A stretch of DNA of 64,000 bases from a virus. Lineage: Duplodnaviria; Caudoviricetes. The stretch lies in IMG/VR virus record IMGVR_UViG_3300016486_001578. One strand, 5' to 3'. The first letter of the stretch is position 1, and every line of letters begins with the position of its first letter. The position numbers were made by a program, and so were the translations under genes. The notes below the pieces were generated by a model, which did no database searches, was not told where the DNA came from, and was given only the letters and a program-made list of their open reading frames with translations. Shown here in pieces: positions 11,511 through 59,417 of the stretch.

Positions 11511-12023
11511 ATGAGTATGAGAATTAGAAAGTTTAATGAAAATAATGATATGAATAGATCATTAAAAGATTATATAAGAGGTAAAATAGAATATACTAAG
11601 ATAATTAATCTTATGTATAAAAATATGGATATCTTTGATATATTAGGAGATTATATCTATAATGATATATTTTGTGGTAAGATACCAAAGAGTCTAGACT
11701 ACATAACCAAAAAGGATAAATTAGCAATTTTACTTATAAGTGAATCAGATTTAATTGTAGATAGATTAAAGGAGCTTTATGGTGAGCCAATCTATCATAA
11801 TGAATTTGGTGAAGGATTTGAGGGTAATTATAATCAAGAAACTGATGAGTATATCGAACCCGAAAATAAGAGTGGATTCGCATCATATTTTATAAATATT
11901 GAAGGTGTTGAATTACATGTTGGTTATGATCATAGGGGACTTTCCTTAGAGGTAGAAAAAAATATTGAAATAGAAAAAATATACAAGTCTCTGAAAATAT
12001 ATTTACTATATTTGTATTTATGA
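11511..12023 (+). CDS. Hypothetical protein with MRIRKFNE N-terminus
   Basis: ORF track; shared N-terminal motif. Confidence 0.55.
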   Translation: MSMRIRKFNENNDMNRSLKDYIRGKIEYTKIINLMYKNMDIFDILGDYIYNDIFCGKIPKSLDYITKKDKLAILLISESDLIVDRLKELYGEPIYHNEFGEGFEGNYNQETDEYIEPENKSGFASYFINIEGVELHVGYDHRGLSLEVEKNIEIEKIYKSLKIYLLYLYL

Positions 12024-12766
12024 AAATATATATACTCGCAGATAAAAATAATATACCATATACCGTAAATGCTTATTTAGCATATAATGGCTTTGAACAA
12101 TTGGGATATGAAGTTATCTTAATAAAGACAATCGATGATATTAAAGATAATAATCCAGAAAATATTGTATTTGCTGGTATAGGTAATGTTAAAAACTATA
12201 TTAATAATGTTTTAAAATTAGATATTGATATTGAGAATTTTGACTACCCAAGTGAACTAAGTGAATATTTAGGTCGTAATTTACATAAAGATAAGTTTAA
12301 TAAGTTTATTAGTGAATTTACTGGTGATAAACCTTTATTTATAAAACCAGTAAATGAACAAAAGCTATTCACAGGAGTTTTAATCAATGAGTATAAAGAC
12401 ATACCACCATTAAAAGAAGATATTGATATATGGGTATCAGAGCCTATTAAATTTATAACAGAATATAGATGCTTTATCTATCATAATAAAATAATAGGAT
12501 GTAAGAATTATAAAGGAAATCCCTTTAGAAGTATTGATGAAAATGTAGTCTTAGGAGCAGTTAAAGATTTTACCAAATCACCTATTTCATATTCAATCGA
12601 CTTTGGTCTAACTGATGATGGTAGAACTCTATTAGTAGAAGCTAATGACTCACATTCCTTAGGTGCTTATGGCTTGAACCCACACCTATATGCTAGAATA
12701 ATAGCAGCAAGATGGGCAGAGTTAACAAATACAAATGACTACTCCTATTATGAATTTAATATATAA
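12020..12766 (+). CDS. ATP-grasp protein (DUF4343 / R2K clade)
   Basis: DYPSELSEYLGR, FIKP, KLFTG, EYRCFI and IDFG...LVEAND motifs. Confidence 0.8.
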   Translation: MKIYILADKNNIPYTVNAYLAYNGFEQLGYEVILIKTIDDIKDNNPENIVFAGIGNVKNYINNVLKLDIDIENFDYPSELSEYLGRNLHKDKFNKFISEFTGDKPLFIKPVNEQKLFTGVLINEYKDIPPLKEDIDIWVSEPIKFITEYRCFIYHNKIIGCKNYKGNPFRSIDENVVLGAVKDFTKSPISYSIDFGLTDDGRTLLVEANDSHSLGAYGLNPHLYARIIAARWAELTNTNDYSYYEFNI

Positions 12767-12769
12767 ATA

Positions 12770-13015
12770 ATGTTTAAAATTAGAATTATAGCACAAAAAG
12801 TTTTATGCTTACTAGGTATACTAACTTCTATATTATTTATACCATATGAGTATATTATTAATAATATAGAAATTTCACCAGGTGGAACTATCGGGATGTT
12901 AGTTATATCTTTTTGTATTTTTATATTATGTATGGATGGTTTGATTGAGACAAATAATAAAGAAACAAAATATAACATATTCACAATTAATAATGATTGG
13001 AAATATAAAAGATAA
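12770..13015 (+). CDS. Small two-TM membrane protein
   Basis: Two hydrophobic segments. Confidence 0.5.
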   Translation: MFKIRIIAQKVLCLLGILTSILFIPYEYIINNIEISPGGTIGMLVISFCIFILCMDGLIETNNKETKYNIFTINNDWKYKR

Positions 13016-13018
13016 AAT

Positions 13019-13285
13019 ATGATTAAGAAGTTTGAAAATTTTGGAGAATCTAAGCTAAGTAAAGTGTGGTATTTAGAATTATATGATTTACAATATTCTC
13101 TAGTAGAGAATGATCCACTATTTATAGAGATAGAAGAATGGGTAAGTGATAATGATCATAATAATGGTTATGCATACTCTTGGAAAGTAGGAGAAGATGA
13201 TACTGCATATCCACTACTAGATAAGTATTTCATAAATAATGGGCTTATAAAAGATGATATAGTCATAGTGCATTGTCTTTGGTAA
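13019..13285 (+). CDS. Hypothetical protein with MIKKFENF N-terminus
   Basis: ORF track. Confidence 0.55.
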   Translation: MIKKFENFGESKLSKVWYLELYDLQYSLVENDPLFIEIEEWVSDNDHNNGYAYSWKVGEDDTAYPLLDKYFINNGLIKDDIVIVHCLW

Positions 13286-13510
13286 GATAAAGAATTTAAT
13301 TATTAGTATAAACGAATTTAAAACAAAAACTATGGGATATTTTATTATAACACTAATCTTTTTATTTATATGTGTGTTATTTTACAAACTTACGAATGTG
13401 AATTGGTATCATCAATTTTTAACACAAGATTTTAAAGATAAAGATTGGTTCACGAAACTTGTTAAATGGTTGGTGAATTGATTTTTTATTAAAATAAAAT
13501 AGAAAATAAA

Positions 13511-13542
13511 TTTGCAGGTATAAAAACTTTGTTATATATTTG
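13511..13542 (+). promoter_or_regulatory. Bacteroidetes sigma70-type promoter for the leader/tRNA operon
   Basis: Exact consensus: TTTG (13511-14), 20 nt, TATATTTG (13535-42). Confidence 0.7.
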
Positions 13543-13596
13543 TAGTATAATTAAAGAAAAACAAAAAGGAACAATAATAAATTAATATATAAAATT

Positions 13597-13695
13597 ATGA
13601 ACACAACAACTTTAAATACAAACTTATCACTGAGATCTCTTTTATTAAGAGAAGGGTCGGGATTTGTCTTATTTGAACGTTGTGATAGTAAATAA
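13597..13695 (+). CDS. Leu/Arg-rich attenuator leader peptide (MNTTTLNTNLSLRSLLLREGSGFVLFERCDSK)
   Basis: 7 of 9 codons at 13624-13650 are Leu or Arg; contains GTCGGGATTTGT, complementary to the 5' arm of the downstream terminator. Confidence 0.75.
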   Translation: MNTTTLNTNLSLRSLLLREGSGFVLFERCDSK

Positions 13696-13719
13696 TTACT
13701 ATAATAATATATCTAATAC

Positions 13720-13753
13720 AAACCCGATACTCATAAAAGTATCGGGTTTTTTT
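13720..13753 (+). terminator. Attenuator terminator immediately before the tRNA array
   Basis: 12-bp stem AAACCCGATACT/AGTATCGGGTTT followed by a U-tract, ending just before the first tRNA at 13756. Confidence 0.85.
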
Positions 13754-13755
13754 AT

Positions 13756-13839
13756 GCACTTGTGGTGGAATTGGTAGACACCCTGGTCTTAGAAGCCAGT
13801 GCTCGGAAGAGCGTGAGAGTTCGATTCTCTCCAAGTGTA
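13756..13839 (+). tRNA. tRNA-Leu(UAG), long variable arm
   Basis: Cloverleaf GCACTTG/CAAGTGT; anticodon loop CTTAGAA; GTTCGA T-loop; A73; CCA not encoded. Confidence 0.92.
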
Positions 13840-13846
13840 CTATAAT

Positions 13847-13933
13847 GCGGCTATGATGAAATTGGTAGCACATGCTAGACTTAAAATCTAGTGGATAGTA
13901 ATGTCCGTGCGGGTTCGACTCCCGCTAGCCGTA
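13847..13933 (+). tRNA. tRNA-Leu(UAA), long variable arm
   Basis: GCGGCTA/TAGCCGT acceptor; CTAGA-CTTAAAA-TCTAG anticodon arm; GGTTCGACTCC. Confidence 0.92.
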
Positions 13934-13940
13934 CAAAAAT

Positions 13941-14013
13941 GGCCCTATGGTGTAACTGAATAACACACACGCCTTCTAAGCGTATATTCCAAGTTTGAAT
14001 CTTGGTAGGGTCA
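13941..14013 (+). tRNA. tRNA-Arg(UCU)
   Basis: GGCCCTA/TAGGGTC acceptor; anticodon loop CTTCTAA. Confidence 0.85.
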
Positions 14014-14026
14014 CAAAAAATTAAAT

Positions 14027-14101
14027 GCTCTGGTAGCCCAATTGGAAGAGGCAATAGTTTTAGAAACTATACAGGTGTGGGTTCAAATCCCACTCGGAGT
14101 A
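14027..14101 (+). tRNA. tRNA with UAG (Leu) anticodon and short variable loop
   Basis: GCTCTGG/TCGGAGT acceptor; ATAGT-TTTAGAA-ACTAT; only about 6 nt before the T-arm GTGGG-TTCAAAT-CCCAC; A73. Confidence 0.85.
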
Positions 14102-14105
14102 CAAT

Positions 14106-14186
14106 GTCTCAGTAGTCCCAGTTGTCTTCTAAACAACTACGGGTAATTGGATGCTGAAAATATAGGTTCGAATCCTATCTGAGACA
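14106..14186 (+). tRNA. Atypical tRNA-Arg(UCU)-like RNA lacking a canonical D-arm
   Basis: Perfect acceptor GTCTCAG/CTGAGAC, 6-bp anticodon stem with CTTCTAA loop, about 23-nt variable region, canonical T-arm. Confidence 0.7.
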
Positions 14187-14191
14187 CAAAT

Positions 14192-14242
14192 ATCTTGGTG
14201 GTGAAACCGTGTACGCTGCGGGTTCGACTCCCGTCCAAGATA
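14192..14242 (+). ncRNA. Anticodon-less tRNA-like mini-RNA (acceptor stem plus T-arm)
   Basis: ATCTTGG/CCAAGAT stem and GCGGG-TTCGACT-CCCGT T-arm separated by about 19 nt. Confidence 0.6.
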
Positions 14243-14257
14243 CAAAATGAAAGTAAA

Positions 14258-14431
14258 ATGATAATAGAGATAGATAATAAGACATATTTGGTAGAACCTT
14301 GTAAGCATTGTAAAAGAGATGATATCATTTATATAGAGAGTGATTTACCATGGAGTGATAGTAAATTTATATGTGATTTCTGTTGCTCTACCTATTCAAT
14401 ATTTGATACTAATATAGCAAATAAGATATAA
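14258..14431 (+). CDS. Small zinc-ribbon protein inside the tRNA array
   Basis: CKHC...CDFC; ATG at 14258 is in frame with track ORF 14195-14431. Confidence 0.55.
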   Translation: MIIEIDNKTYLVEPCKHCKRDDIIYIESDLPWSDSKFICDFCCSTYSIFDTNIANKI

Positions 14432-14450
14432 ATTTGAATAAGAAAAATAA

Positions 14451-14524
14451 GGCTTTGTATCATAATCGCATAATGAAATAGTTTCCTAAACTATCCTATG
14501 TGGGTTGGAATCCCTCCGAAGTCA
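14451..14524 (+). tRNA. tRNA-Arg(CCU)
   Basis: GGCTTTG/CGAAGTC acceptor; ATAGT-TTCCTAA-ACTAT; atypical TTGGAAT T-loop. Confidence 0.8.
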
Positions 14525-14542
14525 CAAATAAAAAAATAAAAT

Positions 14543-14584
14543 ATGAAAACTAAAAATACATTACTACTACTACTCAAAGAATGA
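14543..14584 (+). CDS. Leucine attenuator leader peptide (MKTKNTLLLLLKE)
   Basis: Five tandem Leu codons TTA CTA CTA CTA CTC directly upstream of a terminator and leuS. Confidence 0.85.
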   Translation: MKTKNTLLLLLKE

Positions 14585-14615
14585 TTCTTCTTTAGTATAG
14601 TAATACCTTATACTC

Positions 14616-14647
14616 AAGTCTTATCATTAATTTGATAAGACTTTTTT
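14616..14647 (+). terminator. Attenuator terminator upstream of leuS
   Basis: 11-bp stem AAGTCTTATCA/TGATAAGACTT plus U-tract. Confidence 0.85.
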
Positions 14648-14673
14648 GTTAAAAAAAATTAAAAATATAAATC

Positions 14674-16299
14674 ATGAATATAAAAGAAATAGAAAAAAAG
14701 TGGCAAAATAAATGGATAGAAGATAATTCATTTAAATTTGATGTAAACTCTAATAAAGAGAAGAAGATTATCATACCTATGTTTCCTTACCCCTCTGGTA
14801 ATATACATATGGGTCATATGAGAAATTATACAATATCGGATGTGATTGCTAGATATTGGCGAAATAAAGGATTTAACGTTTGTCATCCAATGGGTTGGGA
14901 CTCATATGGTTCACCAGCAGAAAGTGCTGCTATAAATAATAATGTACATCCAAAAGAATGGACTGATATCAATATTAAGAATATGAAAGAGCAAATGATT
15001 AGAATGGGTATGTCATTTGATTGGAGTAGAGAAATATCAACATGCGAGGTAGACTATTGGAAAAATGAACAGAAGTTCTTTATTGATATGTGGAAAAAAG
15101 GATATATTGATAAGAAGATTGGTTATGTAAACTGGGATCCAATAGATGAGAGTGTGGTTTCAAATGAACAAGTTATAGATGGTAAAGGGTGGAGAACAGG
15201 TGCTATAATAGAACAAAAAGAAATGATACAATATTACTTTAAAACAACTATGTTTAAAGATGATATGATGAATGTATCCTCTTGTGAAGAATGGCCTGAT
15301 AATATTACTAAGCAACAAGTAAACTTCATGAGTAAGGGTATAAGAAATGGTGATGATATAAACCCATTCTCAGATTGGTGTGTATCAAGACAGAAATATT
15401 GGGGAACACCAATACCTATGATCAATTGTGACAAATGTGGAACTATTCCAAATGAGAATATCCCAGTAGTAGCACCAATTGATGTTGACTTTAATGGAAA
15501 GGGTAATCCTATAAGAAATCATGCAACATGGGCGAATATAAAATGCCCAAATTGTGGTGGTGATGCTGAGAAAGAAACAGATACAATGGATACATTTGTT
15601 CAATCATCTTGGTACTTTATAAGATATATCTCAGATTTTTTTAATGGTGAGTTCGATCATGATGTTATTAAAAAAATGTTCCCAATTGATTACTATATTG
15701 GTGGCTCAGAACATGCTAATAGTCATATGATTTATTCTAGATTTTTTTGGAGAGTTTTTAAAGAAATGAATTATATACCTAAAAATACCTCAATAGAACC
15801 ATTTAAAAAAGTAATAACACAAGGTATGGTGAAAAATGGTGGGAAAAAGATGAGTAAATCAGCAGGTAATGGTATATCACCAATTGATGTAGTTGATAAA
15901 TATGGTTGTGATGTTGTAAGAATGTATATGATGTTCAGTGGACCAGTTGAACAAGATATTGATTGGAATGAAGATGGTATAAAAGGTGTGTCTAGATTTA
16001 TAACTAAAATTATAAATGCTATAACTAAAATAAAAGATAAAGATTTCATATATATTAAAAATGTAAAAAATGAACAAATATCTAAAACTAAAATAGAAGA
16101 ATTGAATAAAAGAATTGAAAATGTATATGAAGATAATATGAAATTTAATACAATAATAGCATTTTCAATGGAAACATATAATGCAATATCAAAAACAACT
16201 GATATAAATATATGGAAAGAGGGAATAGATACCATAATGCGTGGTATAGGTCCAATAATTCCACATATTTATAGTGAAAATTATGAAAATTATGAATAG
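14674..16299 (+). CDS. leuS: Minimal leucyl-tRNA synthetase (no CP1 editing domain, no C-terminal domain)
   Basis: MFPYPSG, HMGH (HIGH), DWCVSRQKYWGTPIP, TDTMDTFVQSSWY, YIGGSEHA and KMSKS; only 541 aa. Confidence 0.92.
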   Translation: MNIKEIEKKWQNKWIEDNSFKFDVNSNKEKKIIIPMFPYPSGNIHMGHMRNYTISDVIARYWRNKGFNVCHPMGWDSYGSPAESAAINNNVHPKEWTDINIKNMKEQMIRMGMSFDWSREISTCEVDYWKNEQKFFIDMWKKGYIDKKIGYVNWDPIDESVVSNEQVIDGKGWRTGAIIEQKEMIQYYFKTTMFKDDMMNVSSCEEWPDNITKQQVNFMSKGIRNGDDINPFSDWCVSRQKYWGTPIPMINCDKCGTIPNENIPVVAPIDVDFNGKGNPIRNHATWANIKCPNCGGDAEKETDTMDTFVQSSWYFIRYISDFFNGEFDHDVIKKMFPIDYYIGGSEHANSHMIYSRFFWRVFKEMNYIPKNTSIEPFKKVITQGMVKNGGKKMSKSAGNGISPIDVVDKYGCDVVRMYMMFSGPVEQDIDWNEDGIKGVSRFITKIINAITKIKDKDFIYIKNVKNEQISKTKIEELNKRIENVYEDNMKFNTIIAFSMETYNAISKTTDINIWKEGIDTIMRGIGPIIPHIYSENYENYE

Positions 16300-20990: not shown

Positions 20991-22964
20991 CTAAGTATAT
21001 AAGAATAGTTCATACTTTATTTTACCACAATCCCATATTCTATATAAACCAATGGATCTCATATAAGTGCTCTCAGTTATTTTCGACCCTTTTATCCCTA
21101 GTTTACTTTTTTTAAACCTAGATTTATGGACCCTTTTGTTTTCTGTGATGTATTTATAATCAGGATTAGACATACTCACTAATTTAAATTTTAAATTCAG
21201 ATAAAGATTACCAAGTGACCAATCTCTATCTGCATAACTAATTACCCTAGTTGGGTTGTAATTTTTGATAAAGAAATTTAATAATTTACTAGCCCCACCA
21301 ACAACAGACATATTTAATTTATTGCAAAATCTTGATAAATTCCAACCACTTTCTTCCATCTTCTTCCGACCTTCATTTTTATCAAAGGTCATAATAGATA
21401 TTAGTTCTTTTTTGTAGAATAAACCAATTGATACTTTGTTATTTGAAGAACCTCCTTGTATGTGATTATCATTTAAAAATTCATTAATGGTTTTATAATC
21501 CTTTATTTCTTTAACAACACAATTTCTGGCATATATCCTTTCGTTGGTTAATCCCAACCAATTTATAATTTGACTTTCTAGTATATTTCTTTTGAATGTC
21601 CAATCATCTTCCCAGATATGAATAATCCTTATTCCTTTTTCTTCAAAGTGTCTACTCTTATTTAAATGATAGTTTTTATCTTTAAATTCTTCTGAGTGCC
21701 AATATAACCCATTTAATTCAAATCCTATTTTTAATTCCGGTAAATAAATATCAATTTCTAAACCATCACGATATGATTGAATTATTTTACCATCATATAT
21801 TGAATCTATAAAATTAAATAGTTCTTTTTCTTTTATTGAAACTGAATCACCAATTGGATTACAAACGGTACATAGAGGGATATTTGATTTTTTTCTCTTT
21901 GTGTAATTATCAATATCTATATCAAACTCATGTGGAAGGTCATAATCACAAGAAAATAAAGAAATTCCATTATTTTTGTACTCTATATAATACATGTCAT
22001 TGGTTATTCTATATTTTAGCCTATATTCTATATTTTTACTTATATGCTCCTCATTATATTTTTCAATATTTGTCTTTTTGATTTTATCTGATATCTCTTT
22101 TATTGAATTCAAGTTGAGCGTTCCGTATTTTTTTATTATTGAACTTCTTATCTTATTCTTTACCCTATCTGATTTTGATGGATTATCAACTCCATATCTG
22201 TCTATATTTGTTGATTTTATTTTATTTTTTATATCAATATTCTGTATTGGAAATTCTACTCCCAATTTTTTAAAATTAGTTTTTTTTAGTTTAGTTATAA
22301 AATCTTTGTTCTGTAAAGCATACTCAACTCCATATCTTTCTAACATAGTTTCTTTTGTCTTTTTCTTAAACTCGTCCAATTTTAGTGGATTATCAACCCC
22401 ATATTTTTCTAAGAAGTAGGATCTTAATTTGCTCTTTATTTCCTCTGAATGCATAGCATACTCAACTCCATATCTTTCTAACATAGTTTCTTTTGCCTTT
22501 TTCCTTATACTATCAACCCTTGATGGATTATCAACCCCATATTTATTGATGTTAGTTTTCTTTGTCTTTTTGATGATAGATATATTTTGTGTTGCCCAAT
22601 CATGTCCAAATTTTTTGTTATTTGTGGCTTTTACTCTATCCTTTATACCTTTTGACTTTGATGGATTATCAACCCCATACCTTTTTAAGTTAGTTTCTCT
22701 TCTCTTTGATTTAATAGACTTGCTATTATACATACACTTTCTAGAACAAAAATTTCTAAACCCATTTATCATATCAATGAACTTAACCTTATTTCCACAA
22801 TAACAAATAGGTAGCACCTTCATATCATTTTCATATAGATAGAATTTTTCTTTAAATGTTGTATAGTCTATTTTTTTATCACTTATTGATAGCCACAAAT
22901 CATAATTTTTTTTCTTAATACCATTTTCTGATAATCTATATAACTCTGTGTTCTTTGTTTCCAT
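20991..22964 (-). CDS. Putative homing endonuclease with KYGVDNP-type repeats and a Vsr-like PD-(D/E)xK domain
   Basis: About 9 (K/R)YGV-type repeats; EIDIYLPELKIGFELNGLYWHS; IHIWEDDW; C-terminal YADRDWS...WDCG domain. Confidence 0.75.
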   Translation of the reverse strand: METKNTELYRLSENGIKKKNYDLWLSISDKKIDYTTFKEKFYLYENDMKVLPICYCGNKVKFIDMINGFRNFCSRKCMYNSKSIKSKRRETNLKRYGVDNPSKSKGIKDRVKATNNKKFGHDWATQNISIIKKTKKTNINKYGVDNPSRVDSIRKKAKETMLERYGVEYAMHSEEIKSKLRSYFLEKYGVDNPLKLDEFKKKTKETMLERYGVEYALQNKDFITKLKKTNFKKLGVEFPIQNIDIKNKIKSTNIDRYGVDNPSKSDRVKNKIRSSIIKKYGTLNLNSIKEISDKIKKTNIEKYNEEHISKNIEYRLKYRITNDMYYIEYKNNGISLFSCDYDLPHEFDIDIDNYTKRKKSNIPLCTVCNPIGDSVSIKEKELFNFIDSIYDGKIIQSYRDGLEIDIYLPELKIGFELNGLYWHSEEFKDKNYHLNKSRHFEEKGIRIIHIWEDDWTFKRNILESQIINWLGLTNERIYARNCVVKEIKDYKTINEFLNDNHIQGGSSNNKVSIGLFYKKELISIMTFDKNEGRKKMEESGWNLSRFCNKLNMSVVGGASKLLNFFIKNYNPTRVISYADRDWSLGNLYLNLKFKLVSMSNPDYKYITENKRVHKSRFKKSKLGIKGSKITESTYMRSIGLYRIWDCGKIKYELFLYT

Positions 22965-23039: not shown

Positions 23040-24743
23040 TTGTTAGTAGACACTCAATATAAAAATGGTAAGTTAATAGTCAGTTACGTGGATAAAACTG
23101 GTGGAATAAAATTAAAATATTATAATTGGGACAATCCAATGAAATATATAACTTGTGATGATGATGATAATGGTAAACATCCTAATTATAAATCATGGGA
23201 TGGTAAATCAGTAAAACAAGTAGAAGTAAATTACCCTGATAGATACGCAGTTTATGAGTTTCTGGATTCTCTCCCAGAGGAAGAAAGATTGGAGATATTT
23301 GAATTTAATACTCCTAAAATATATTTCATAGATATTGAAACAGAAATTGTTGATGGGTTTCCCGAGGCTGAAGACATCTTAGATAAAGAGGGTAATGTCA
23401 AAAAAGAAGGAGCCTGTACTAGTGTGTTATCTATATCAGTTGTTTATGATGATAAAATCATATTACTTGGTCTTAGGGATATGCCACAAGACATGCAAGA
23501 CAGAATAAAGAACAATACAAACAAATACTTCAAGAAGATAAATAATGACATAGATTATAAATTTAAATACGTTAAGTATGATGATGAATTTGATATGCTT
23601 TATAACTTTTTCTATAAGATGGTTCCTAAAATGCCTTTATTGACTGGGTGGAACTTCCTTAATTATGATTGGTTGTATTTAGTGAATAGAGCAAAGAAAT
23701 TAAAAAAATACACAAATGGTAAAGAATATGTTATAAACCCAGCAGTTTCATCTCTCACAAAGAGGTTGAATAAAAAATGGGGTTCTAATTGTGAGCTACC
23801 AGCTCATAGAATGATTTTTGATTATATGCAATTATATGAAATAGCCGATTCTTCTATTAAAGTTAAAGAAAGTTCTTCATTGGATTTTGTTTCTGGTAAA
23901 TTAGTTGGGGTTGATAAGATTAAATTCATAAATTCTATATTCAAATTAAACCAAGATTGCTCTATGAAAGGATATGATTTTAAACAAGATGAAATTTGCC
24001 GAAAAGATGGTGATGGTTATTATATGTATGTTGGTACTGATAGAATCGAATTTAGTCTATCGGAGTTTTCATCTTATAAAGACTTATTTAGAGAAGTAAA
24101 TGTTTCTAACTTACAAACATTATACAATGAGGATTTTGAGATTTATATGTACTACAATGCGGTGGATTCGGTTCTTGTTCAAAAAATACACGAATCTCGT
24201 AATTATATATCAATAATATTTGCGATATCTTCCTTAGCACAAATTAAGATAGTTGATGTAGTTTCATCAATGAATAATGCTTTGGGATCATTGGCTATTA
24301 CAGAGGGAGTTTTAAGAAATAGATTTAGAAATCAAGATAATATTGTCTTATTTAAAGAAGAAAAACATGATGCTGAATCTACCATTGCTGGTGGGTGGGT
24401 AAAAGACCCTGTTATGGGTATGAATCAGTGGGTTGTTTGTTATGATTTTGCGAGCTTGTATCCTCGCACCCAGGCGCAGTTCTTTATATCACCAGAGAAC
24501 TTTATAGGGGTTCAATCATCTTCTGATAAGACACTATGTACCAATGGTGAGTCAATACATCCAACAAATCATGTTGTTTGTGTCAATGGTGTGGTTTTTA
24601 ATAAGAGGATGTCCCCAACACTATTGATGTTAGAGGATGTCTATTCTGATAGAAAGAAAAATAAGAAGATAATGATGGATAAGAAAGAGGAACTAAATGA
24701 CGTACTTTTGGAGATAGCTAAGTTGGAATCCGATTTGGTATAA
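23040..24743 (+). CDS. Family-B DNA polymerase, N-terminal subunit (exonuclease plus motif A; T4 gp43A-like)
   Basis: DIETE (ExoI), GWNFLNYD (ExoII), YNAVD (ExoIII) and DFASLYP (motif A); stops in the fingers without KxxxNSxYG or YGDTDS. Confidence 0.9.
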   Translation: MLVDTQYKNGKLIVSYVDKTGGIKLKYYNWDNPMKYITCDDDDNGKHPNYKSWDGKSVKQVEVNYPDRYAVYEFLDSLPEEERLEIFEFNTPKIYFIDIETEIVDGFPEAEDILDKEGNVKKEGACTSVLSISVVYDDKIILLGLRDMPQDMQDRIKNNTNKYFKKINNDIDYKFKYVKYDDEFDMLYNFFYKMVPKMPLLTGWNFLNYDWLYLVNRAKKLKKYTNGKEYVINPAVSSLTKRLNKKWGSNCELPAHRMIFDYMQLYEIADSSIKVKESSSLDFVSGKLVGVDKIKFINSIFKLNQDCSMKGYDFKQDEICRKDGDGYYMYVGTDRIEFSLSEFSSYKDLFREVNVSNLQTLYNEDFEIYMYYNAVDSVLVQKIHESRNYISIIFAISSLAQIKIVDVVSSMNNALGSLAITEGVLRNRFRNQDNIVLFKEEKHDAESTIAGGWVKDPVMGMNQWVVCYDFASLYPRTQAQFFISPENFIGVQSSSDKTLCTNGESIHPTNHVVCVNGVVFNKRMSPTLLMLEDVYSDRKKNKKIMMDKKEELNDVLLEIAKLESDLV

Positions 24744-36987: not shown

Positions 36988-38184
36988 ATGATAAAAGTTA
37001 TAAAGAGAAATGGTAAGAAGGAACCAGTTATGTTGGATAAAATCCTAGATAGAATAACACAACAAACATATGCGCTAGACAATAAATGGATTAGCCCATT
37101 TGATGTTGCACAAAAAGTTATAGCAGGAGTAGCTCCCAATATAAAAACATCTGTTTTGGATCAATTAGCAATGGAGACTGCTGCTTCTTTGGCTACCAAA
37201 CACCCAGATTATTCAATATTGGCCGCTAGATTGGCTATCACCGCATTACATAAAGAAACTAAAAAAAGCTTTTCTGATACGGTTAAGGATTTATATAAAT
37301 ACACAAATCCAATAACAGGCAAGAAAGCACCGATTGTGTCTAGGGAGTTTTATGAATTAGTAAAAGACAACAAAGATGAGTTAGATTCTGCTATCGTCCA
37401 TTCGAGAGACCATAATTTTGATTATTTTGGATACAAAACACTTGAGAAGTCCTATTTACTTAAAACAAACGGTAAAGTAGTTGAGAGACCACAATATATG
37501 TATATGAGAACTGCTTTACAAATATGGGGTGATAATTTAGAAAAAGTTAAATCGACTTATAACTTATTATCAGAGGGGTATTACACACATGCAACACCTA
37601 CTTTGTTTAATTCGGGCACCAATAGGCAACAATTATCTTCTTGTTTTTTATTAGATACAGAATCTGATTCTATTGAGGGTATTTTTAATACACTAAAAGA
37701 ATCTGCTCAAATATCTAAAAATGCTGGAGGAATTGGAATTTCTTTTAATAAAGTTAGAGCAAAGGGAACATATATTGCTGGTACTAATGGCTCATCAAAT
37801 GGTGTTATACCATTCTTGAAGATTTTTAATGAAACTGCTAGAGCGGTTGATCAATGCTTCACACCTGAGTCAAAAGTCATGACAGATAATGGTTTAGTAA
37901 ATATTGATGAAATTAAGAAAGGTGATTCCGTATTAACATCTGATGGTAAGTTTAATAAGGTTTTAGAAAGAAAAGAATTTATAAAAGATGAGGATTTTGT
38001 AGTAATTAAAACAAATAGTGGATTAAATAGGGTAACAAAAGAACACCAAATATTAGTTATTAGAAATCTATCAAAAGATATTGAAGACTCGGCTATTATA
38101 TTAGGTATAAAAAGTGGTGTATATAACATAGAATGGATATCTGCAAATGAACTATTAAAAAGTGATAAAATAGTAAAATATTAA
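36988..38184 (+). CDS. nrdA: Class Ia ribonucleotide reductase alpha, fragment 1 (ATP-cone) plus IntN1 (Cys1 at 37855, 109 aa)
   Basis: VIKRNG ATP-cone, ERPQ, HATPTLFN, LSSC, GGIG and AVDQ|CFTPES. Confidence 0.93.
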   Translation: MIKVIKRNGKKEPVMLDKILDRITQQTYALDNKWISPFDVAQKVIAGVAPNIKTSVLDQLAMETAASLATKHPDYSILAARLAITALHKETKKSFSDTVKDLYKYTNPITGKKAPIVSREFYELVKDNKDELDSAIVHSRDHNFDYFGYKTLEKSYLLKTNGKVVERPQYMYMRTALQIWGDNLEKVKSTYNLLSEGYYTHATPTLFNSGTNRQQLSSCFLLDTESDSIEGIFNTLKESAQISKNAGGIGISFNKVRAKGTYIAGTNGSSNGVIPFLKIFNETARAVDQCFTPESKVMTDNGLVNIDEIKKGDSVLTSDGKFNKVLERKEFIKDEDFVVIKTNSGLNRVTKEHQILVIRNLSKDIEDSAIILGIKSGVYNIEWISANELLKSDKIVKY

Positions 38185-40515: not shown

Positions 40516-41883
40516 ATGTTAAAAATAGAAAAAGTAAAAAATAGACCGGTTTATGATATAACCGTTAATAAAAATCATAACTTTTATGCTAACGATATAC
40601 TAGTACATAACTGTGCTGAGATTGTAGAAGCAACTGGAATTACTAAATCACAAAAAGATATTCTTAATAATAAGGAGTTATTAGATAGCTTGGGGTTGTC
40701 TGAATTTTATGGAAGAGAATCAGTTAATGAGACTGCGGTTTGTAACTTAGCATCTATTGCACTTCCTAAGTTTGTTAATAAAAACAAAACATATAACTTT
40801 AAGAAATTATATGATGTTGCTTATAATGCGGTTATTAATTTAAATAATGTTATTGATACAAATTATTATCCATCAGAATCTGCTAAATTTTCTAATATAT
40901 TACATAGACCAATTGGATTAGGAGTTCAAGGACTATCAGATGTTTTCTTTATGAGTGGATTTGCTTATGATTCTGAACAAGCCAAACATTTAAATAAAGA
41001 AATATTCGAAACGATATATTATGCATCCATTAAGGCTTCTTGTGACTTAGCAAAAGTTGATGGTGCTTATACAACATATGAAGGTTCTCCTATGTCGGAG
41101 GGTAAGTTCCAATTTGATTTATGGAATGTTACTCCAACTAAGAGGTGGGATTGGGATAAACTTAGACTAGAAGTTTTAGAATATGGTGTTAGAAATTCAC
41201 TAACTGGTTGTATTATGCCAACTGCATCAACTGCTAATATACTTGGTAATGAGGCCTCTTGTGAAGTACAGACATCAAATATGTATACAAGAGGTGTCTT
41301 ATCTGGAACTTTTATTTTAGTTAATAAATACTTAGTTAAAGAATTAGTTAAATTAGGAATATGGGATGATAATATTAGAAGAAAGATAATTTCTGAAAAT
41401 GGATCGGTACAGAATATTCCAGAAATACCAACGAATTTAAAGGAAGTATTTAAAACGGCATATGAAATAAAACAAAAAAATGTTATTGATATGGCGGCTG
41501 ATAGAGGAGCATTTGTTGATCAAACACAATCTATGAATATTTTCATGGATTCTCCAAACTTTGCTAAATTAACTGCTATGCATTTCCATGGTTGGGGTAG
41601 AAGAAGTTTTATGAGAGCTGATGATGGTTCTCCTATTTTGCCTAAAAACAAGGATATAAAGGTAGTTTATGATAAAGATGGAAATCCTAGATTTTATAAA
41701 GATGAGAGAAATTCATTAAAAACTGGTATGTATTATCTTAGAAATAAAGCTAAATCTGATGCTGTTAAATTTACGGTTCAAGATGATAAAAACGTTGAAG
41801 ACCAAGTTTCTGATCTAGAAACACAGATGTCTGATATTGCTTGTAGCCTTGATGATGAAGATTGTCTTGCTTGTGGGTCATAA
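40516..41883 (+). CDS. nrdA: NrdA fragment 3: IntC2 (32 aa) plus C-terminal part
   Basis: VYDITV...ILVHN|CAEI, VCNLAS, RPIGLG, MPTAST, DQTQS, KTGMYY and terminal CLAC. Confidence 0.93.
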   Translation: MLKIEKVKNRPVYDITVNKNHNFYANDILVHNCAEIVEATGITKSQKDILNNKELLDSLGLSEFYGRESVNETAVCNLASIALPKFVNKNKTYNFKKLYDVAYNAVINLNNVIDTNYYPSESAKFSNILHRPIGLGVQGLSDVFFMSGFAYDSEQAKHLNKEIFETIYYASIKASCDLAKVDGAYTTYEGSPMSEGKFQFDLWNVTPTKRWDWDKLRLEVLEYGVRNSLTGCIMPTASTANILGNEASCEVQTSNMYTRGVLSGTFILVNKYLVKELVKLGIWDDNIRRKIISENGSVQNIPEIPTNLKEVFKTAYEIKQKNVIDMAADRGAFVDQTQSMNIFMDSPNFAKLTAMHFHGWGRRSFMRADDGSPILPKNKDIKVVYDKDGNPRFYKDERNSLKTGMYYLRNKAKSDAVKFTVQDDKNVEDQVSDLETQMSDIACSLDDEDCLACGS

Positions 41884-58226: not shown

Positions 58227-59417
58227 TCAGGTTTTATCTATAATAGAATTAAATACTGTATAATTTTTATTTATAATAAATAAAAAATTATATCCTAATT
58301 CTATACACTTTTTCTTTTTTTCTTGATTTTTTTCATAGTATTTATTATAATAATAGCTAGATTTTATCTCAATAATTAAATTAAATTTACCAATATAAAA
58401 ATCTGGAAAATATTTTTTATTATTTCCATAAAATTGATAATCTAAACAGGGGCCTCTCTCTATTTCATTTATTATGTTTATACTACTTGAATGATCTAAG
58501 AAGTCCTTTTCGTATGTTCCTTGGTAATATAAGTTATTATTATATTTTGATATTTTTCTTGAATTTTTTTGTTGTTTACTAAAAAACTCTAATACTTGCA
58601 TAGGGTATTCAACACCATATCTATCTAAATTGGTTTGTTTTAATCTATTTTTAGATTCATCGGTCATGGAGTTAGATATGTATCCATATTTTTTCAACAT
58701 GGATTTCACCTTCTTATCCTTTATAATTTTTGATTTATTTGGACTATCAAACCCATATTTATATAAACTAGTTATTTTTGATTTTTCTCTGAAATCATTA
58801 GTATTCATATATGAGTGTTTATTATATTTATTTATACATGTATTTCGTCTATTAATCTTTACCTTTTCGCTTTTCCTAGAATCCTCAACACCATATCTCT
58901 CTAAATTGGTTTTCTTAGTTTTCTCTATTGTTAATTTAGATTGTAGAGAACACACAACACCATATCTCTCTAAATTGGTTTTCTTAGTTTTCTCCATGTT
59001 GTTGTAATTCTCATCACCATATCTTTCTAATTTAGTCTTCTTGGTCTTTTTAATATTTTGGTAATTCTCATCACCATATCTTTCTAATTTAGTCTTCTTG
59101 GTCTTTTTAATATTTTGGTAATTCTCATCACCATATCTTTCTAATTTAGTCTTCTTATTTTTGAATACAGCACAACTATTTGAGCATGAATATATATTAT
59201 ATTTTTTTATATTTTTTATATAACTATTGAATTGTAATTTCTTTATATTACCGCATATATCACATTCTACATTTACTAATATATTAGAACCTAGCCATAA
59301 ATCATTAGTGCCTATTATTACTTTGTCGCCTATTTTGGATAATATATTAATTTTTTTTAATTTAGATATTGTTACTGATGACTTAACATGTATCTCAATC
59401 CTTTTATCTAATATCAT
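58227..59417 (-). CDS. Putative homing endonuclease with ERYG-type repeats and a PD-(D/E)xK domain
   Basis: CDIC...CSNSC; KTxLERYG repeats; YFPDFYI...IEIKS. Confidence 0.75.
   Translation of the reverse strand: MILDKRIEIHVKSSVTISKLKKINILSKIGDKVIIGTNDLWLGSNILVNVECDICGNIKKLQFNSYIKNIKKYNIYSCSNSCAVFKNKKTKLERYGDENYQNIKKTKKTKLERYGDENYQNIKKTKKTKLERYGDENYNNMEKTKKTNLERYGVVCSLQSKLTIEKTKKTNLERYGVEDSRKSEKVKINRRNTCINKYNKHSYMNTNDFREKSKITSLYKYGFDSPNKSKIIKDKKVKSMLKKYGYISNSMTDESKNRLKQTNLDRYGVEYPMQVLEFFSKQQKNSRKISKYNNNLYYQGTYEKDFLDHSSSINIINEIERGPCLDYQFYGNNKKYFPDFYIGKFNLIIEIKSSYYYNKYYEKNQEKKKKCIELGYNFLFIINKNYTVFNSIIDKT
59004..59157 (-). repeat. 57-bp tandem repeat (KKTKLERYGDENYQNIKKT), about 2.7 copies
   Basis: Near-identical nucleotide units. 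Confidence 0.8.

What the first reader, a model, noticed from the sequence alone, without database searches (positions are those of the whole stretch)
13511..14524. Ribosome-stalling attenuator that gates a phage tRNA array using the same codons those tRNAs read
Seen in sequence: a Bacteroidetes-type promoter (13511-42) precedes a 32-aa leader ORF whose core is TTA TCA CTG AGA TCT CTT TTA TTA AGA (LSLRSLLLR). A 12-bp U-tailed terminator (13720-53) ends just before the first tRNA. The leader segment GTCGGGATTTGT (13656-67) is complementary to the terminator's 5' arm ACAAACCCGAT, giving an antiterminator. Bases 13634-41, over the control codons, can pair with 13647-58 as a protector. Every anticodon in the array is Leu (UAG x2, UAA) or Arg (UCU x2, CCU), matching the control codons. 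Established: this is trp/leu/pheM-type attenuator geometry, and phage tRNAs can rescue infection from tRNA-cleaving defences such as PARIS AriB and retron PtuAB. Inference: the phage senses loss of functional Leu/Arg tRNA in the host and only then transcribes replacement tRNAs, an inducible tRNA back-up or counter-defence sensor. I know of no described attenuator controlling tRNA genes in a phage.
Basis: partly seen in the sequence, partly recalled or inferred. Interest (0 to 1): 0.95.

Follow-up and report, generated by a model that had tools for sequence, protein, structure and literature searches.

The report
Leader-peptide switch gating phage tRNA genes
A giant salt-lake phage puts its leucine and arginine tRNA genes, and then its leucyl-tRNA synthetase, behind tiny translated test genes rich in Leu/Arg codons and wired to switchable transcription stops, so it probably makes them only when ribosomes read those codons slowly; I found no paper describing this trp-operon-style control for tRNA genes.

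Summary
The window has a Bacteroidetes-type promoter match (13511-13542) and a 32-codon ORF (13597-13695) with 7 Leu and 3 Arg codons. A 12-bp U-tailed terminator (13720-13753) ends 2 nt before a Leu/Arg-only tRNA array. ORF bases 13648-13672 can pair with the terminator's 5' arm.

The decisive evidence is comparative. In three related huge phages, 13 of 14 further terminator-to-tRNA units have a mini-ORF written in the amino acids of the tRNAs behind it; a further unit in Lak-A1 was seen by eye. No permutation of leaders against arrays matched the observed fit (0 of 100,000). The signal is frame-specific, and each leader best fits its own terminator arm.

A second switch lies at 14543-14647: five consecutive Leu codons and a terminator before a truncated LeuRS. 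It is conserved in five relatives, with synonymous Leu changes and one compensatory stem change.

Best reading: ribosome-mediated attenuation that matches tRNA and synthetase supply to decoding demand. The counter-defence purpose is untested. No orthologue of this exact leader and no RNA data were found. I found no publication. The scan has already reported the same design on other DNA, including other parts of this genome.

The parts
13511..13542 (+). Bacteroidetes-type promoter match: -33 TTTG (13511-14) and -7 TATATTTG (13535-42)
   Evidence: Read directly. It is the only match to the extended motif in the window, but 0.54 are expected by chance. The same -7 box followed by GTAAAAC stands before leaders in L001, L003, L006 and L009.
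13597..13695 (+). Leader ORF 1: 32 codons plus stop, with 7 Leu and 3 Arg. Control codons are L6, L10, L12, R13, L15-L17 and R18 (13612-13650).
   Evidence: 10 of 31 codons are Leu/Arg against 0.11 expected, P = 1.7e-3. The other two frames give 5/30 each. 8 of the 10 are strictly decodable by the array's anticodons.
13602..13684 (+). Protector hairpin (regions 1:2). The control codons pair with the antiterminator strand when no ribosome is present.
   Evidence: Minimum-energy folds (-23.3 kcal/mol). The z-score of the whole leader is -6.4.
13648..13672 (+). Region 2, the 5' strand of the antiterminator (core 13656-13667)
   Evidence: Duplex with 13714-13733 is -15.1 kcal/mol. It forms in constrained folds when the ribosome A site is at L10-L15 and is lost at L17-G20.
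13714..13753 (+). Region 3 (13714-13731), loop (13732-13737), region 4 (13738-13749) and T-run (13747-13753): the intrinsic terminator
   Evidence: 12 pairs, 5 G-C, loop 6. The hairpin is -17.0 kcal/mol.
13756..14185 (+). tRNA array: Leu(UAG) 13756-13840, Leu(UAA) 13847-13934, Arg(UCU) 13941-14014, Leu(UAG) 14027-14102, and an atypical Arg(UCU) 14092-14185
   Evidence: ARAGORN. Rfam tRNA hits of 53-56 bits for the first four. The fifth gets only a 24.8-bit tRNA-Sec-like hit.
14451..14525 (+). tRNA-Arg(CCU), the last tRNA of the unit. It may also be served by a promoter-like TAAATTTG at 14429-14436.
14543..14584 (+). Leader ORF 2: 13 codons with five consecutive Leu codons (14561-14575). The stop codon lies inside the antiterminator strand (14580-14592).
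   Evidence: A run of 5 Leu by chance is about 3e-5. The orthologue in L022 keeps the five Leu through synonymous changes.
14616..14647 (+). Terminator 2 (11-bp stem, loop 6, T-run), 27 nt before the LeuRS start
   Evidence: L022 carries a compensatory T>C / A>G change in the stem.
14674..16299 (+). Truncated leucyl-tRNA synthetase (541 aa, no CP1 editing domain), the gene controlled by leader 2
   Evidence: Pfam tRNA-synt_1 at 1e-50 and no PF13603. About 45 relatives of similar length, some on huge-phage contigs.

Best explanation
This is a ribosome-mediated (leader-peptide) transcription attenuator in front of tRNA genes. Transcription starts at the promoter near 13542. A ribosome translates the 32-codon leader while RNA polymerase moves on.

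If charged tRNA for the Leu (TTA, CTG, CTT) and Arg (AGA) codons at 13612-13650 is short, the ribosome lingers there. That keeps region 1 covered and leaves 13648-13672 free to pair with 13714-13733. The terminator cannot form, and polymerase reads into the Leu/Arg tRNA genes.

If decoding is fast, the ribosome runs over region 2 while the terminator is being made, or region 2 refolds with region 1 behind it. The 12-bp terminator then forms and transcription stops 2 nt before the first tRNA.

The result is negative feedback: the phage makes these tRNAs only to the extent that their codons are decoded slowly. A second, Leu-only switch (14543-14647) applies the same logic to the phage LeuRS.

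Shown here: the anatomy, the codon match, its recurrence in relatives, and the in-silico switching. Inferred: translation of the leader, coupling to polymerase, and the response in vivo.
For: 1. Anatomy in the window:
- Order is promoter, leader ORF, protector (-23.3 kcal/mol), antiterminator (-15.1) and terminator (-17.0).
- Only 2 nt lie between the T-run and the first tRNA, and there is no TAnnTTTG box between the leader and the array.

2. Codon match in relatives:
- A survey with a fixed rule covered the window, L003, LR756501.1, LR745206.1 and Lak-A1. It found 15 terminator-to-tRNA units, and 14 have a mini-ORF enriched in the array's amino acids.
- Examples: a Y-Y-E-E-Y-E core before Glu/Tyr tRNAs (L003); a Gln-rich leader before three Gln tRNAs; an S/R leader before Arg+Ser; a K/H/F/S/W leader before Trp-His-His-Phe-Lys-Ser.
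- Permuting leaders against arrays gave observed 3.16 against 0.02 +/- 0.42, with 0 of 100,000 permutations as high. Within LR756501.1 the true pairing is the best of 120. Within LR745206.1 it is the best of 5,040.
- One more unit was seen by eye in Lak-A1 (L017, about 2064-2192): a leader rich in H, P, C, G, R and M before His, Pro, Arg, Arg, Gly, Cys and Met tRNAs.

3. Frame specificity: 35% of residues match in the ORF frame, against 19% and 13% in the other two frames.

4. Codon level: 130 of 154 control codons are strictly decodable by the detected array anticodons. The Leu leader of LR756501.1 uses all six Leu codons.

5. Antiterminator specificity: own leader against own terminator arm sums to -190.6 kcal/mol, against -130.2 +/- 9.1 for shuffled pairings, with 0 of 100,000 as low. 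The window's leader ranks 3rd of 20 on its own arm. The partner segment sits at ORF nt 56-92 in 13 of the 15 units.

6. Switching in silico: when the terminator's 3' arm is not yet made, the 5' arm is held upstream while the ribosome is at any codon up to the last control codon. It is released just after that, in nearly all units.

7. The LeuRS switch: a Leu run plus terminator stands before the gene in the window, L022, L001, L003, L006 and L009. Leu changes are synonymous, the stem carries a compensatory change, and the antiterminator is predicted when a ribosome sits on the Leu codons. In four of the six it is predicted only then; in the window and L006 it also forms without a ribosome.

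8. Feasibility in the host group: leader-peptide attenuation signals are reported in Flavobacterium (PMC9723704).
Against: - No orthologue of this particular Leu/Arg leader was found, so there is no covariation for this exact element. The closest LeuRS relative has a 248-aa gene abutting LeuRS, with no array and no leader.
- The window leader's enrichment and antiterminator are only moderately significant on their own (P = 1.7e-3; 9 of 300 shuffles).
- The stop codon lies 26 nt past region 2, unlike classical leaders. Equilibrium folds predict the antiterminator again when a ribosome sits at the stop, so tight termination needs favourable kinetics.
- In full-length equilibrium folds the terminator always wins. 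That is also true of the trp attenuator, from my own knowledge.
- One Arg codon (CGT) and one Leu codon (CTT) are not strictly read by the array's anticodons.
- The promoter match is not significant alone.
- There is no direct evidence on transcription, translation or termination.
Confidence: 0.8

Rival explanations
1. Same attenuator, but with a specific purpose: an inducible counter-defence. The phage transcribes replacement Leu/Arg tRNAs only when a host anticodon nuclease (PrrC, RloC, PARIS or retron-PtuAB type) has destroyed the host's tRNAs.
For: The mechanism reports any shortage of functional charged tRNA, so nuclease damage would trigger it. Phage tRNAs are known to rescue infection from tRNA-cleaving defences (from my own knowledge, not checked here). 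Related phages gate nearly every tRNA block this way.
Against: Nothing here points to nucleases. The design covers arrays for essentially all amino acids in relatives, not known nuclease targets alone. The array's anticodons match the phage's own dominant AT-rich codons, and a simple supply/demand homeostat explains that. No defence or anti-defence gene was identified next to the unit.
Confidence: 0.2
2. Coincidence. The mini-ORF is an untranslated or unrelated small gene or sRNA with its own terminator. The tRNAs are made by constitutive leaky read-through or from an unrecognised phage promoter.
For: The window leader alone is only moderately enriched (P = 1.7e-3). The promoter motif is common in AT-rich DNA, with 91 TAnnTTTG boxes in the window. 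The terminator is thermodynamically dominant. No RNA data exist.
Against: 14 of 15 surveyed units in four phages show the same amino-acid match, with 0 of 100,000 permutations as good. The signal is frame-specific. Antiterminators fit their own terminators. Ribosome-position-dependent switching ends at the last control codon. Only 2 nt separate the T-run from the tRNA.
Confidence: 0.06
3. A ribosome-independent RNA switch: a T-box-like element that binds uncharged tRNA, or a protein-binding leader.
For: The leader is strongly structured (z = -6.4). T-boxes also gate translation genes by termination and antitermination.
Against: No Rfam family, T-box included, matches even at E <= 1. Leaders in relatives track up to seven amino acids at once, and only in the ORF frame. 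One specifier codon cannot do that.
Confidence: 0.02
4. The hairpin merely ends the upstream gene cluster (ORFs up to 13481), and the 13511-13542 promoter match is spurious. The tRNA array is then expressed by processing of long read-through transcripts.
For: The promoter match is not significant by itself. All upstream genes are on the same strand.
Against: This does not explain the codon match or the antiterminator. The same -7 box stands before leaders in four relatives. About 240 nt separate the last upstream ORF from the hairpin, and the leader ORF sits between them.
Confidence: 0.04

Closest known systems
Multivalent leader-peptide attenuators of enterobacterial amino-acid operons (thrL sensing Thr+Ile; the ilvGMEDA leader sensing Ile/Leu/Val), and trpL, hisL, leuL, pheL (from my own knowledge)
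   Same: A short translated ORF rich in control codons. Protector, antiterminator and terminator are alternative hairpins. Ribosome position decides termination. One leader senses several amino acids.
   Different: The controlled genes are tRNA genes, not biosynthetic enzymes. The element is in a phage with Bacteroidetes-type signals. There is no sequence relation, and no Rfam leader family matches. The stop codon lies well past region 2. The output restores the sensed molecule directly, as a tRNA supply loop.
pheM leader attenuator of E. coli pheST (phenylalanyl-tRNA synthetase) (from my own knowledge)
   Same: A leader peptide with a run of cognate codons plus a terminator controls an aminoacyl-tRNA synthetase. 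This is exactly the logic of the second switch (14543-14647) before LeuRS.
   Different: Leu instead of Phe. The gene is a phage-encoded, editing-domain-less LeuRS. The switch stands in tandem behind a tRNA-array attenuator.
T-box riboswitches of Firmicutes
   Same: They gate translation-supply genes (aaRS, transporters) by termination or antitermination in response to tRNA charging.
   Different: T-boxes bind one uncharged tRNA directly, without a ribosome. Here there is no T-box match, the signal is frame-specific and covers several amino acids.
tRNA arrays of large phages (T4, T5, Lak and other huge phages; PMC6784885, PMC7162821)
   Same: Clustered phage tRNA genes that match phage codon usage. 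Huge phages also carry aaRS genes.
   Different: Those papers' main texts contain no occurrence of 'attenuat', 'leader' or 'terminator'. Regulated, demand-driven expression is the new element.

Membership tests
Ribosome-mediated (leader-peptide) transcription attenuator | Short ORF with a start codon between the promoter and the regulated genes | tested here: met
   ORF 13597-13695 lies about 50 nt after the -7 box, with an A/T-rich 5' UTR as before leaders in relatives.
Ribosome-mediated (leader-peptide) transcription attenuator | Control codons cognate to the product of the regulated genes | tested here: met
   10 of 31 codons are Leu/Arg against 11% expected (P = 1.7e-3), and 8 of 10 are read by the array's anticodons. 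At family level, 0 of 100,000 permutations match the observed fit.
Ribosome-mediated (leader-peptide) transcription attenuator | Intrinsic terminator between the leader ORF and the first regulated gene | tested here: met
   12-bp stem plus a 7-T run at 13720-13753; the tRNA starts at 13756.
Ribosome-mediated (leader-peptide) transcription attenuator | Antiterminator mutually exclusive with the terminator, formed or blocked according to ribosome position | tested here: met
   In silico only. The duplex is -15.1 kcal/mol. It is present with the A site at L10-L15 and lost at L17-G20. It returns with a ribosome at the stop codon, which is a weakness.
Ribosome-mediated (leader-peptide) transcription attenuator | Conservation in relatives, with control codons tracking the regulated genes and pairing maintained | tested here: inconclusive
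   Met for the design as a family and for the LeuRS leader. No orthologue of this Leu/Arg leader was found.
Ribosome-mediated (leader-peptide) transcription attenuator | Read-through rises when the cognate charged tRNA is limiting | not testable with these tools
   No RNA run is listed for this DNA. This needs reporter, Term-seq or in-vitro assays.
Ribosome-mediated (leader-peptide) transcription attenuator | Regulated genes are amino-acid biosynthesis or aaRS protein genes (the classical scope) | tested here: not met
   Leader 1 controls tRNA genes. This is the point of novelty. Leader 2 controls LeuRS and fits the classical scope.
T-box riboswitch / known Rfam leader families (Leu_leader, His_leader and others) | Match to the family covariance model | tested here: not met
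   cmscan of 12500-15500 at E <= 1 finds only tRNAs and sub-threshold chance hits.

The most novel reading that the evidence does not exclude
Huge phages of Bacteroidetes run a genome-wide, codon-resolved tRNA economy. Every tRNA block and some synthetases sit behind a multi-amino-acid leader peptide that audits decoding speed of exactly those codons. This makes phage tRNA output demand-driven. It would also serve as an automatic alarm that replaces host tRNAs destroyed by anticodon-nuclease defences. In this phage a Leu/Arg tRNA switch and a Leu-only synthetase switch are stacked, separating tRNA shortage from charging shortage.
Probability: 0.25. Interest if true: 0.92.

Novelty: new variant of a known kind. 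Interest (0 to 1): 0.85.

Why it matters
As far as I could find, leader-peptide attenuation has been described for amino-acid biosynthesis and a few synthetase genes. I found no published case where it controls tRNA genes.

If real, it shows three things:
- Phage tRNA arrays are regulated, self-limiting supply circuits rather than constitutive cargo.
- It gives a direct read-out of which codons a phage considers limiting in its host.
- It opens a testable route to the long-standing question of why large phages carry tRNAs: codon compensation or defence evasion.

The leaders are also compact natural sensors of decoding speed for chosen codon sets, and they could be reused as reporters. Finally, the finding implies tight transcription-translation coupling in the Bacteroidetes hosts of these phages.

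Tried and rejected
- No RNA holder is listed for this DNA. The four DNA runs laid are contigs identical over the leader, so they show no natural variation or covariation.
- The whole genome is not held. The other attenuators that the scan noted in this genome therefore could not be checked.
- Relatives in IMG/VR: none by LeuRS peptide patterns, none by the exact terminator.
- A scan with the conserved 5'-UTR motif gave 118 loci. None carries a mini-ORF plus terminator at the match, so the motif is not specific.
- The Cys-rich ORF inside the array has no relatives in viral or metagenome contigs. The 88-aa ORF upstream has no homologues. The leader is too short for the protein search.
- Full-length equilibrium folds with ribosome footprints never give the antiterminator in the window unit. 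I switched to nascent-transcript folds, which is the kinetically relevant question.
- The sigma-70 promoter scan is at chance level (25 found against 20.9 expected).
- I considered whether the window could be a giant eukaryotic virus, because of B-family polymerase, ankyrin repeats and inteins. I rejected this: PHROG matches are to phage DNA polymerase (phrog_262, phrog_2062), UvsX-like recombinase and DnaB-like helicase, and relatives carry GreA and RNase P protein.
- No structure or complex prediction was needed.
Full report
WHAT IS THERE

The window is about 27% G+C. It comes from a contig of 548,945 bp whose DNA recurs in salt-lake metagenomes. Its genes include a phage-type B-family DNA polymerase, a UvsX-like recombinase, a DnaB-like helicase, homing endonucleases and an intein-bearing ribonucleotide reductase. 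The nearest named relatives are the uncultured huge phages LR756501.1 (735 kb) and LR745206.1 (635 kb). It is a huge phage with Bacteroidetes-type expression signals.

- A -33 TTTG and a -7 TATATTTG at 13511-13542.
- A 32-codon ORF at 13597-13695 whose core at 13624-13650 reads L-S-L-R-S-L-L-L-R.
- A 12-bp terminator (5 G-C pairs) with a 7-T run at 13720-13753.
- A first tRNA at 13756, only 2 nt after the T-run.
- An array of Leu(UAG), Leu(UAA), Arg(UCU), Leu(UAG), an atypical Arg(UCU), and further on Arg(CCU).

The unconstrained fold gives a long hairpin within the leader (13602-13684) plus the terminator, with z = -6.4 against shuffles. The proposed antiterminator is real.

IS IT MORE THAN CHANCE?

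Taken alone, this leader is suggestive but not compelling. It has 10 of 31 Leu/Arg codons against 11% expected (P = 1.7e-3). 9 of 300 shuffles give as good a partner for the 12-nt terminator arm. The promoter motif is expected 0.54 times per window. The decisive evidence is comparative.

RELATIVES

Relatives of the neighbouring LeuRS led to huge-phage contigs. On these, tRNA genes are grouped by amino acid. The sequence upstream of those arrays shows the same cassette.

In L003, a -7 box is followed by a 29-codon ORF with the core Y-Y-E-E-Y-E and a terminator. An array of Glu, Tyr, Glu, Glu, Tyr follows.

In LR756501.1, five arrays each follow a mini-ORF and a terminator, and each mini-ORF is written in the array's amino acids:
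- K/H/F/S/W before Trp-His-His-Phe-Lys-Ser.
- A Leu-rich leader that uses all six Leu codons before five Leu tRNAs.
- Y/N/D/C/I before Ile-Cys-Asp-Asn-Tyr.
- M/Q/I/E before Met-Gln-Ile(UAU)-Glu.
- T/P/A/V/R/G before Arg-Thr-Val-Ala-Gly-Pro.

LR745206.1 adds seven more units, including a Gln-only leader before three Gln tRNAs and an S/R leader before Arg+Ser.

The published Prevotella phage Lak-A1 has one unit seen by eye. It is a leader rich in H, P, C, G, R and M before His, Pro, Arg, Arg, Gly, Cys and Met tRNAs.

STATISTICAL TESTS

I applied a fixed rule: take the longest ATG ORF that ends 0-60 nt before a terminator followed by tRNAs. This gave 15 units, including the window's. 14 of them, including the window's, are enriched in the array's amino acids. 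The exception is the single automatically detected Lak-A1 unit (L018).

- Permutation of leaders against arrays: summed excess 3.16 against 0.02 +/- 0.42, with 0 of 100,000 as high. Within LR756501.1 the true pairing is the best of all 120. Within LR745206.1 it is the best of 5,040.
- Frame specificity: 35% matching residues in the ORF frame, against 19% and 13% in the other frames. This argues for translation.
- Codon level: 130 of 154 control codons are strictly readable by the detected anticodons.

STRUCTURE ACROSS THE FAMILY

The best partner of each terminator's 5' arm lies at ORF nt 56-92 in 13 of the 15 units. In LR756501.1 the leaders end in a copy of the terminator's 3' arm.

Own leader against own arm sums to -190.6 kcal/mol, against -130.2 +/- 9.1 for shuffled pairings, with 0 of 100,000 as low. 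The antiterminators therefore co-vary with their terminators across units.

In full-length equilibrium folds the terminator wins in all but two units, including the window's. The kinetically relevant state is the nascent transcript before the 3' arm exists. In that state the 5' arm is held upstream while a ribosome footprint sits on any codon up to the last control codon, and it is released just after. This holds unit after unit.

For the window:
- No ribosome: the protector forms.
- A site at L10-L15: the antiterminator forms.
- A site at L17-G20: region 2 is covered and the antiterminator is lost.

There is one weak point. The stop codon lies 26 nt beyond region 2. A ribosome parked at the stop would again permit the antiterminator, so tight termination depends on timing.

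THE SECOND SWITCH

Eighteen nt after tRNA-Arg(CCU) lies a 13-codon ORF (14543-14584) with five consecutive Leu codons. A terminator follows at 14616-14647, and then a 541-aa LeuRS without the CP1 editing domain.

The same arrangement precedes LeuRS in L022, L001, L003, L006 and L009. L022's LeuRS is 78% identical. Its leader keeps five Leu through synonymous changes, and its terminator stem carries a compensatory T>C / A>G change. In each relative the stop codon lies in or just before the antiterminator strand. In four of the six the antiterminator is predicted only with a ribosome on the Leu codons; in the window and L006 it also forms with no ribosome. This is the classical pheM-pheST logic.

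The window's own antiterminator for this switch is weak (about -4 kcal/mol as a duplex).

The locus therefore stacks two switches: a Leu+Arg switch for the tRNAs and a Leu-only switch for the synthetase. A promoter-like box at 14429-14436 may feed the second part separately.

MECHANISM AND PURPOSE

The supported reading is ribosome-mediated attenuation. Slow decoding of the control codons allows read-through into the genes that relieve the shortage, which is negative feedback on tRNA and synthetase supply.

The array's anticodons cover the phage's dominant codons: TTA is 57% and CTA 16% of Leu, AGA is 74% and AGG 17% of Arg. This fits a demand-matching homeostat for an AT-rich phage.

NOVELTY

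Seven full-text searches found no description of attenuators before tRNA genes. The main texts of the two papers that published Lak-A1 and the huge-phage clades (the latter appears to be the source of the two LR records) contain no occurrence of 'attenuat', 'leader' or 'terminator'.

This scan has already reported the same design on other DNA, and first readers noted further cassettes elsewhere in this same genome. I reached the comparative result before reading those notes.

LIMITS

- There is no orthologue of this exact leader. The closest LeuRS relative lacks the whole cassette.
- There are no RNA data.
- All switching evidence is computed.
- The units in related phages are partly orthologous to one another. 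The within-genome permutations are therefore the cleaner test.

Noticed in passing
window 14674-16299: The phage LeuRS is only 541 aa and lacks the CP1 editing domain: no PF13603, while bacterial relatives of about 810-860 aa have it. About 45 relatives of similar length exist, some on huge-phage contigs. It may be an editing-free synthetase dedicated to phage tRNA-Leu.
   Followed up: partly
window 14190-14243: A tRNA-like minihelix: a 7-bp acceptor-type stem with a canonical T-arm (GGGTTCGACTCCC) but no anticodon arm. It lies between the fifth tRNA and the small Cys-rich ORF, and neither ARAGORN nor Rfam calls it.
   Followed up: partly
window 14092-14185: An atypical 94-nt tRNA-Arg(UCU) call overlaps the previous tRNA by 11 nt. 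Rfam gives only a sub-threshold tRNA-Sec-like match at 14105-14186. It may be a long-variable-arm or intron-bearing tRNA.
   Followed up: no
window 14258-14431: A 57-aa ORF with a CxxC...CxxCC pattern (zinc-ribbon-like) lies inside the tRNA unit. No relatives were found in viral or metagenome contigs.
   Followed up: partly
window 12767-14673 versus the contig of P0003: In the closest LeuRS relative (78% identity) a 248-aa gene ends 4 nt before LeuRS. It has the same length as the window's R2K ATP-grasp gene at 12020-12766. The small ORFs, both leaders and the tRNA array therefore look like an insertion or deletion of about 1.9 kb.
   Followed up: partly
L011/L012 (LR756501.1), upstream of each leader: All five leaders of the 735-kb phage are preceded by a shared motif: GAC-T6, then a few bases, then AATATATAA. 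This differs from the TAnnTTTG box of the window and may be a phage-specific promoter.
   Followed up: no
L017 about 2064-2270 (Lak-A1, MK250015.1 about 108.06-108.27 kb): The published Prevotella megaphage Lak-A1 has a 42-codon leader rich in H, P, C, G, R and M, followed by a long-loop terminator. Behind it lies a dispersed series of His, Pro, Arg, Arg, Gly, Cys and Met tRNAs separated by spacers of roughly 0.3-1.1 kb.
   Followed up: partly
window 36988-38184 and 40516-41883; 20991-22964 and 58227-59417: The ribonucleotide reductase large subunit is interrupted by a Hint/intein module and split over two ORFs. Two large DUF7487 homing-endonuclease-like genes are present. The B-family DNA polymerase ORF (23040-24743) matches only part of the family model, so it may also be split.
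   Followed up: no
L014 (LR756501.1) and L019 (Lak-A1): Pairs of suppressor tRNAs with anticodon CUA are present, consistent with the TAG recoding reported for Lak phages. The LeuRS leader of L003 ends in TAG, with TGA two codons later, so recoding would lengthen that leader slightly.
   Followed up: no
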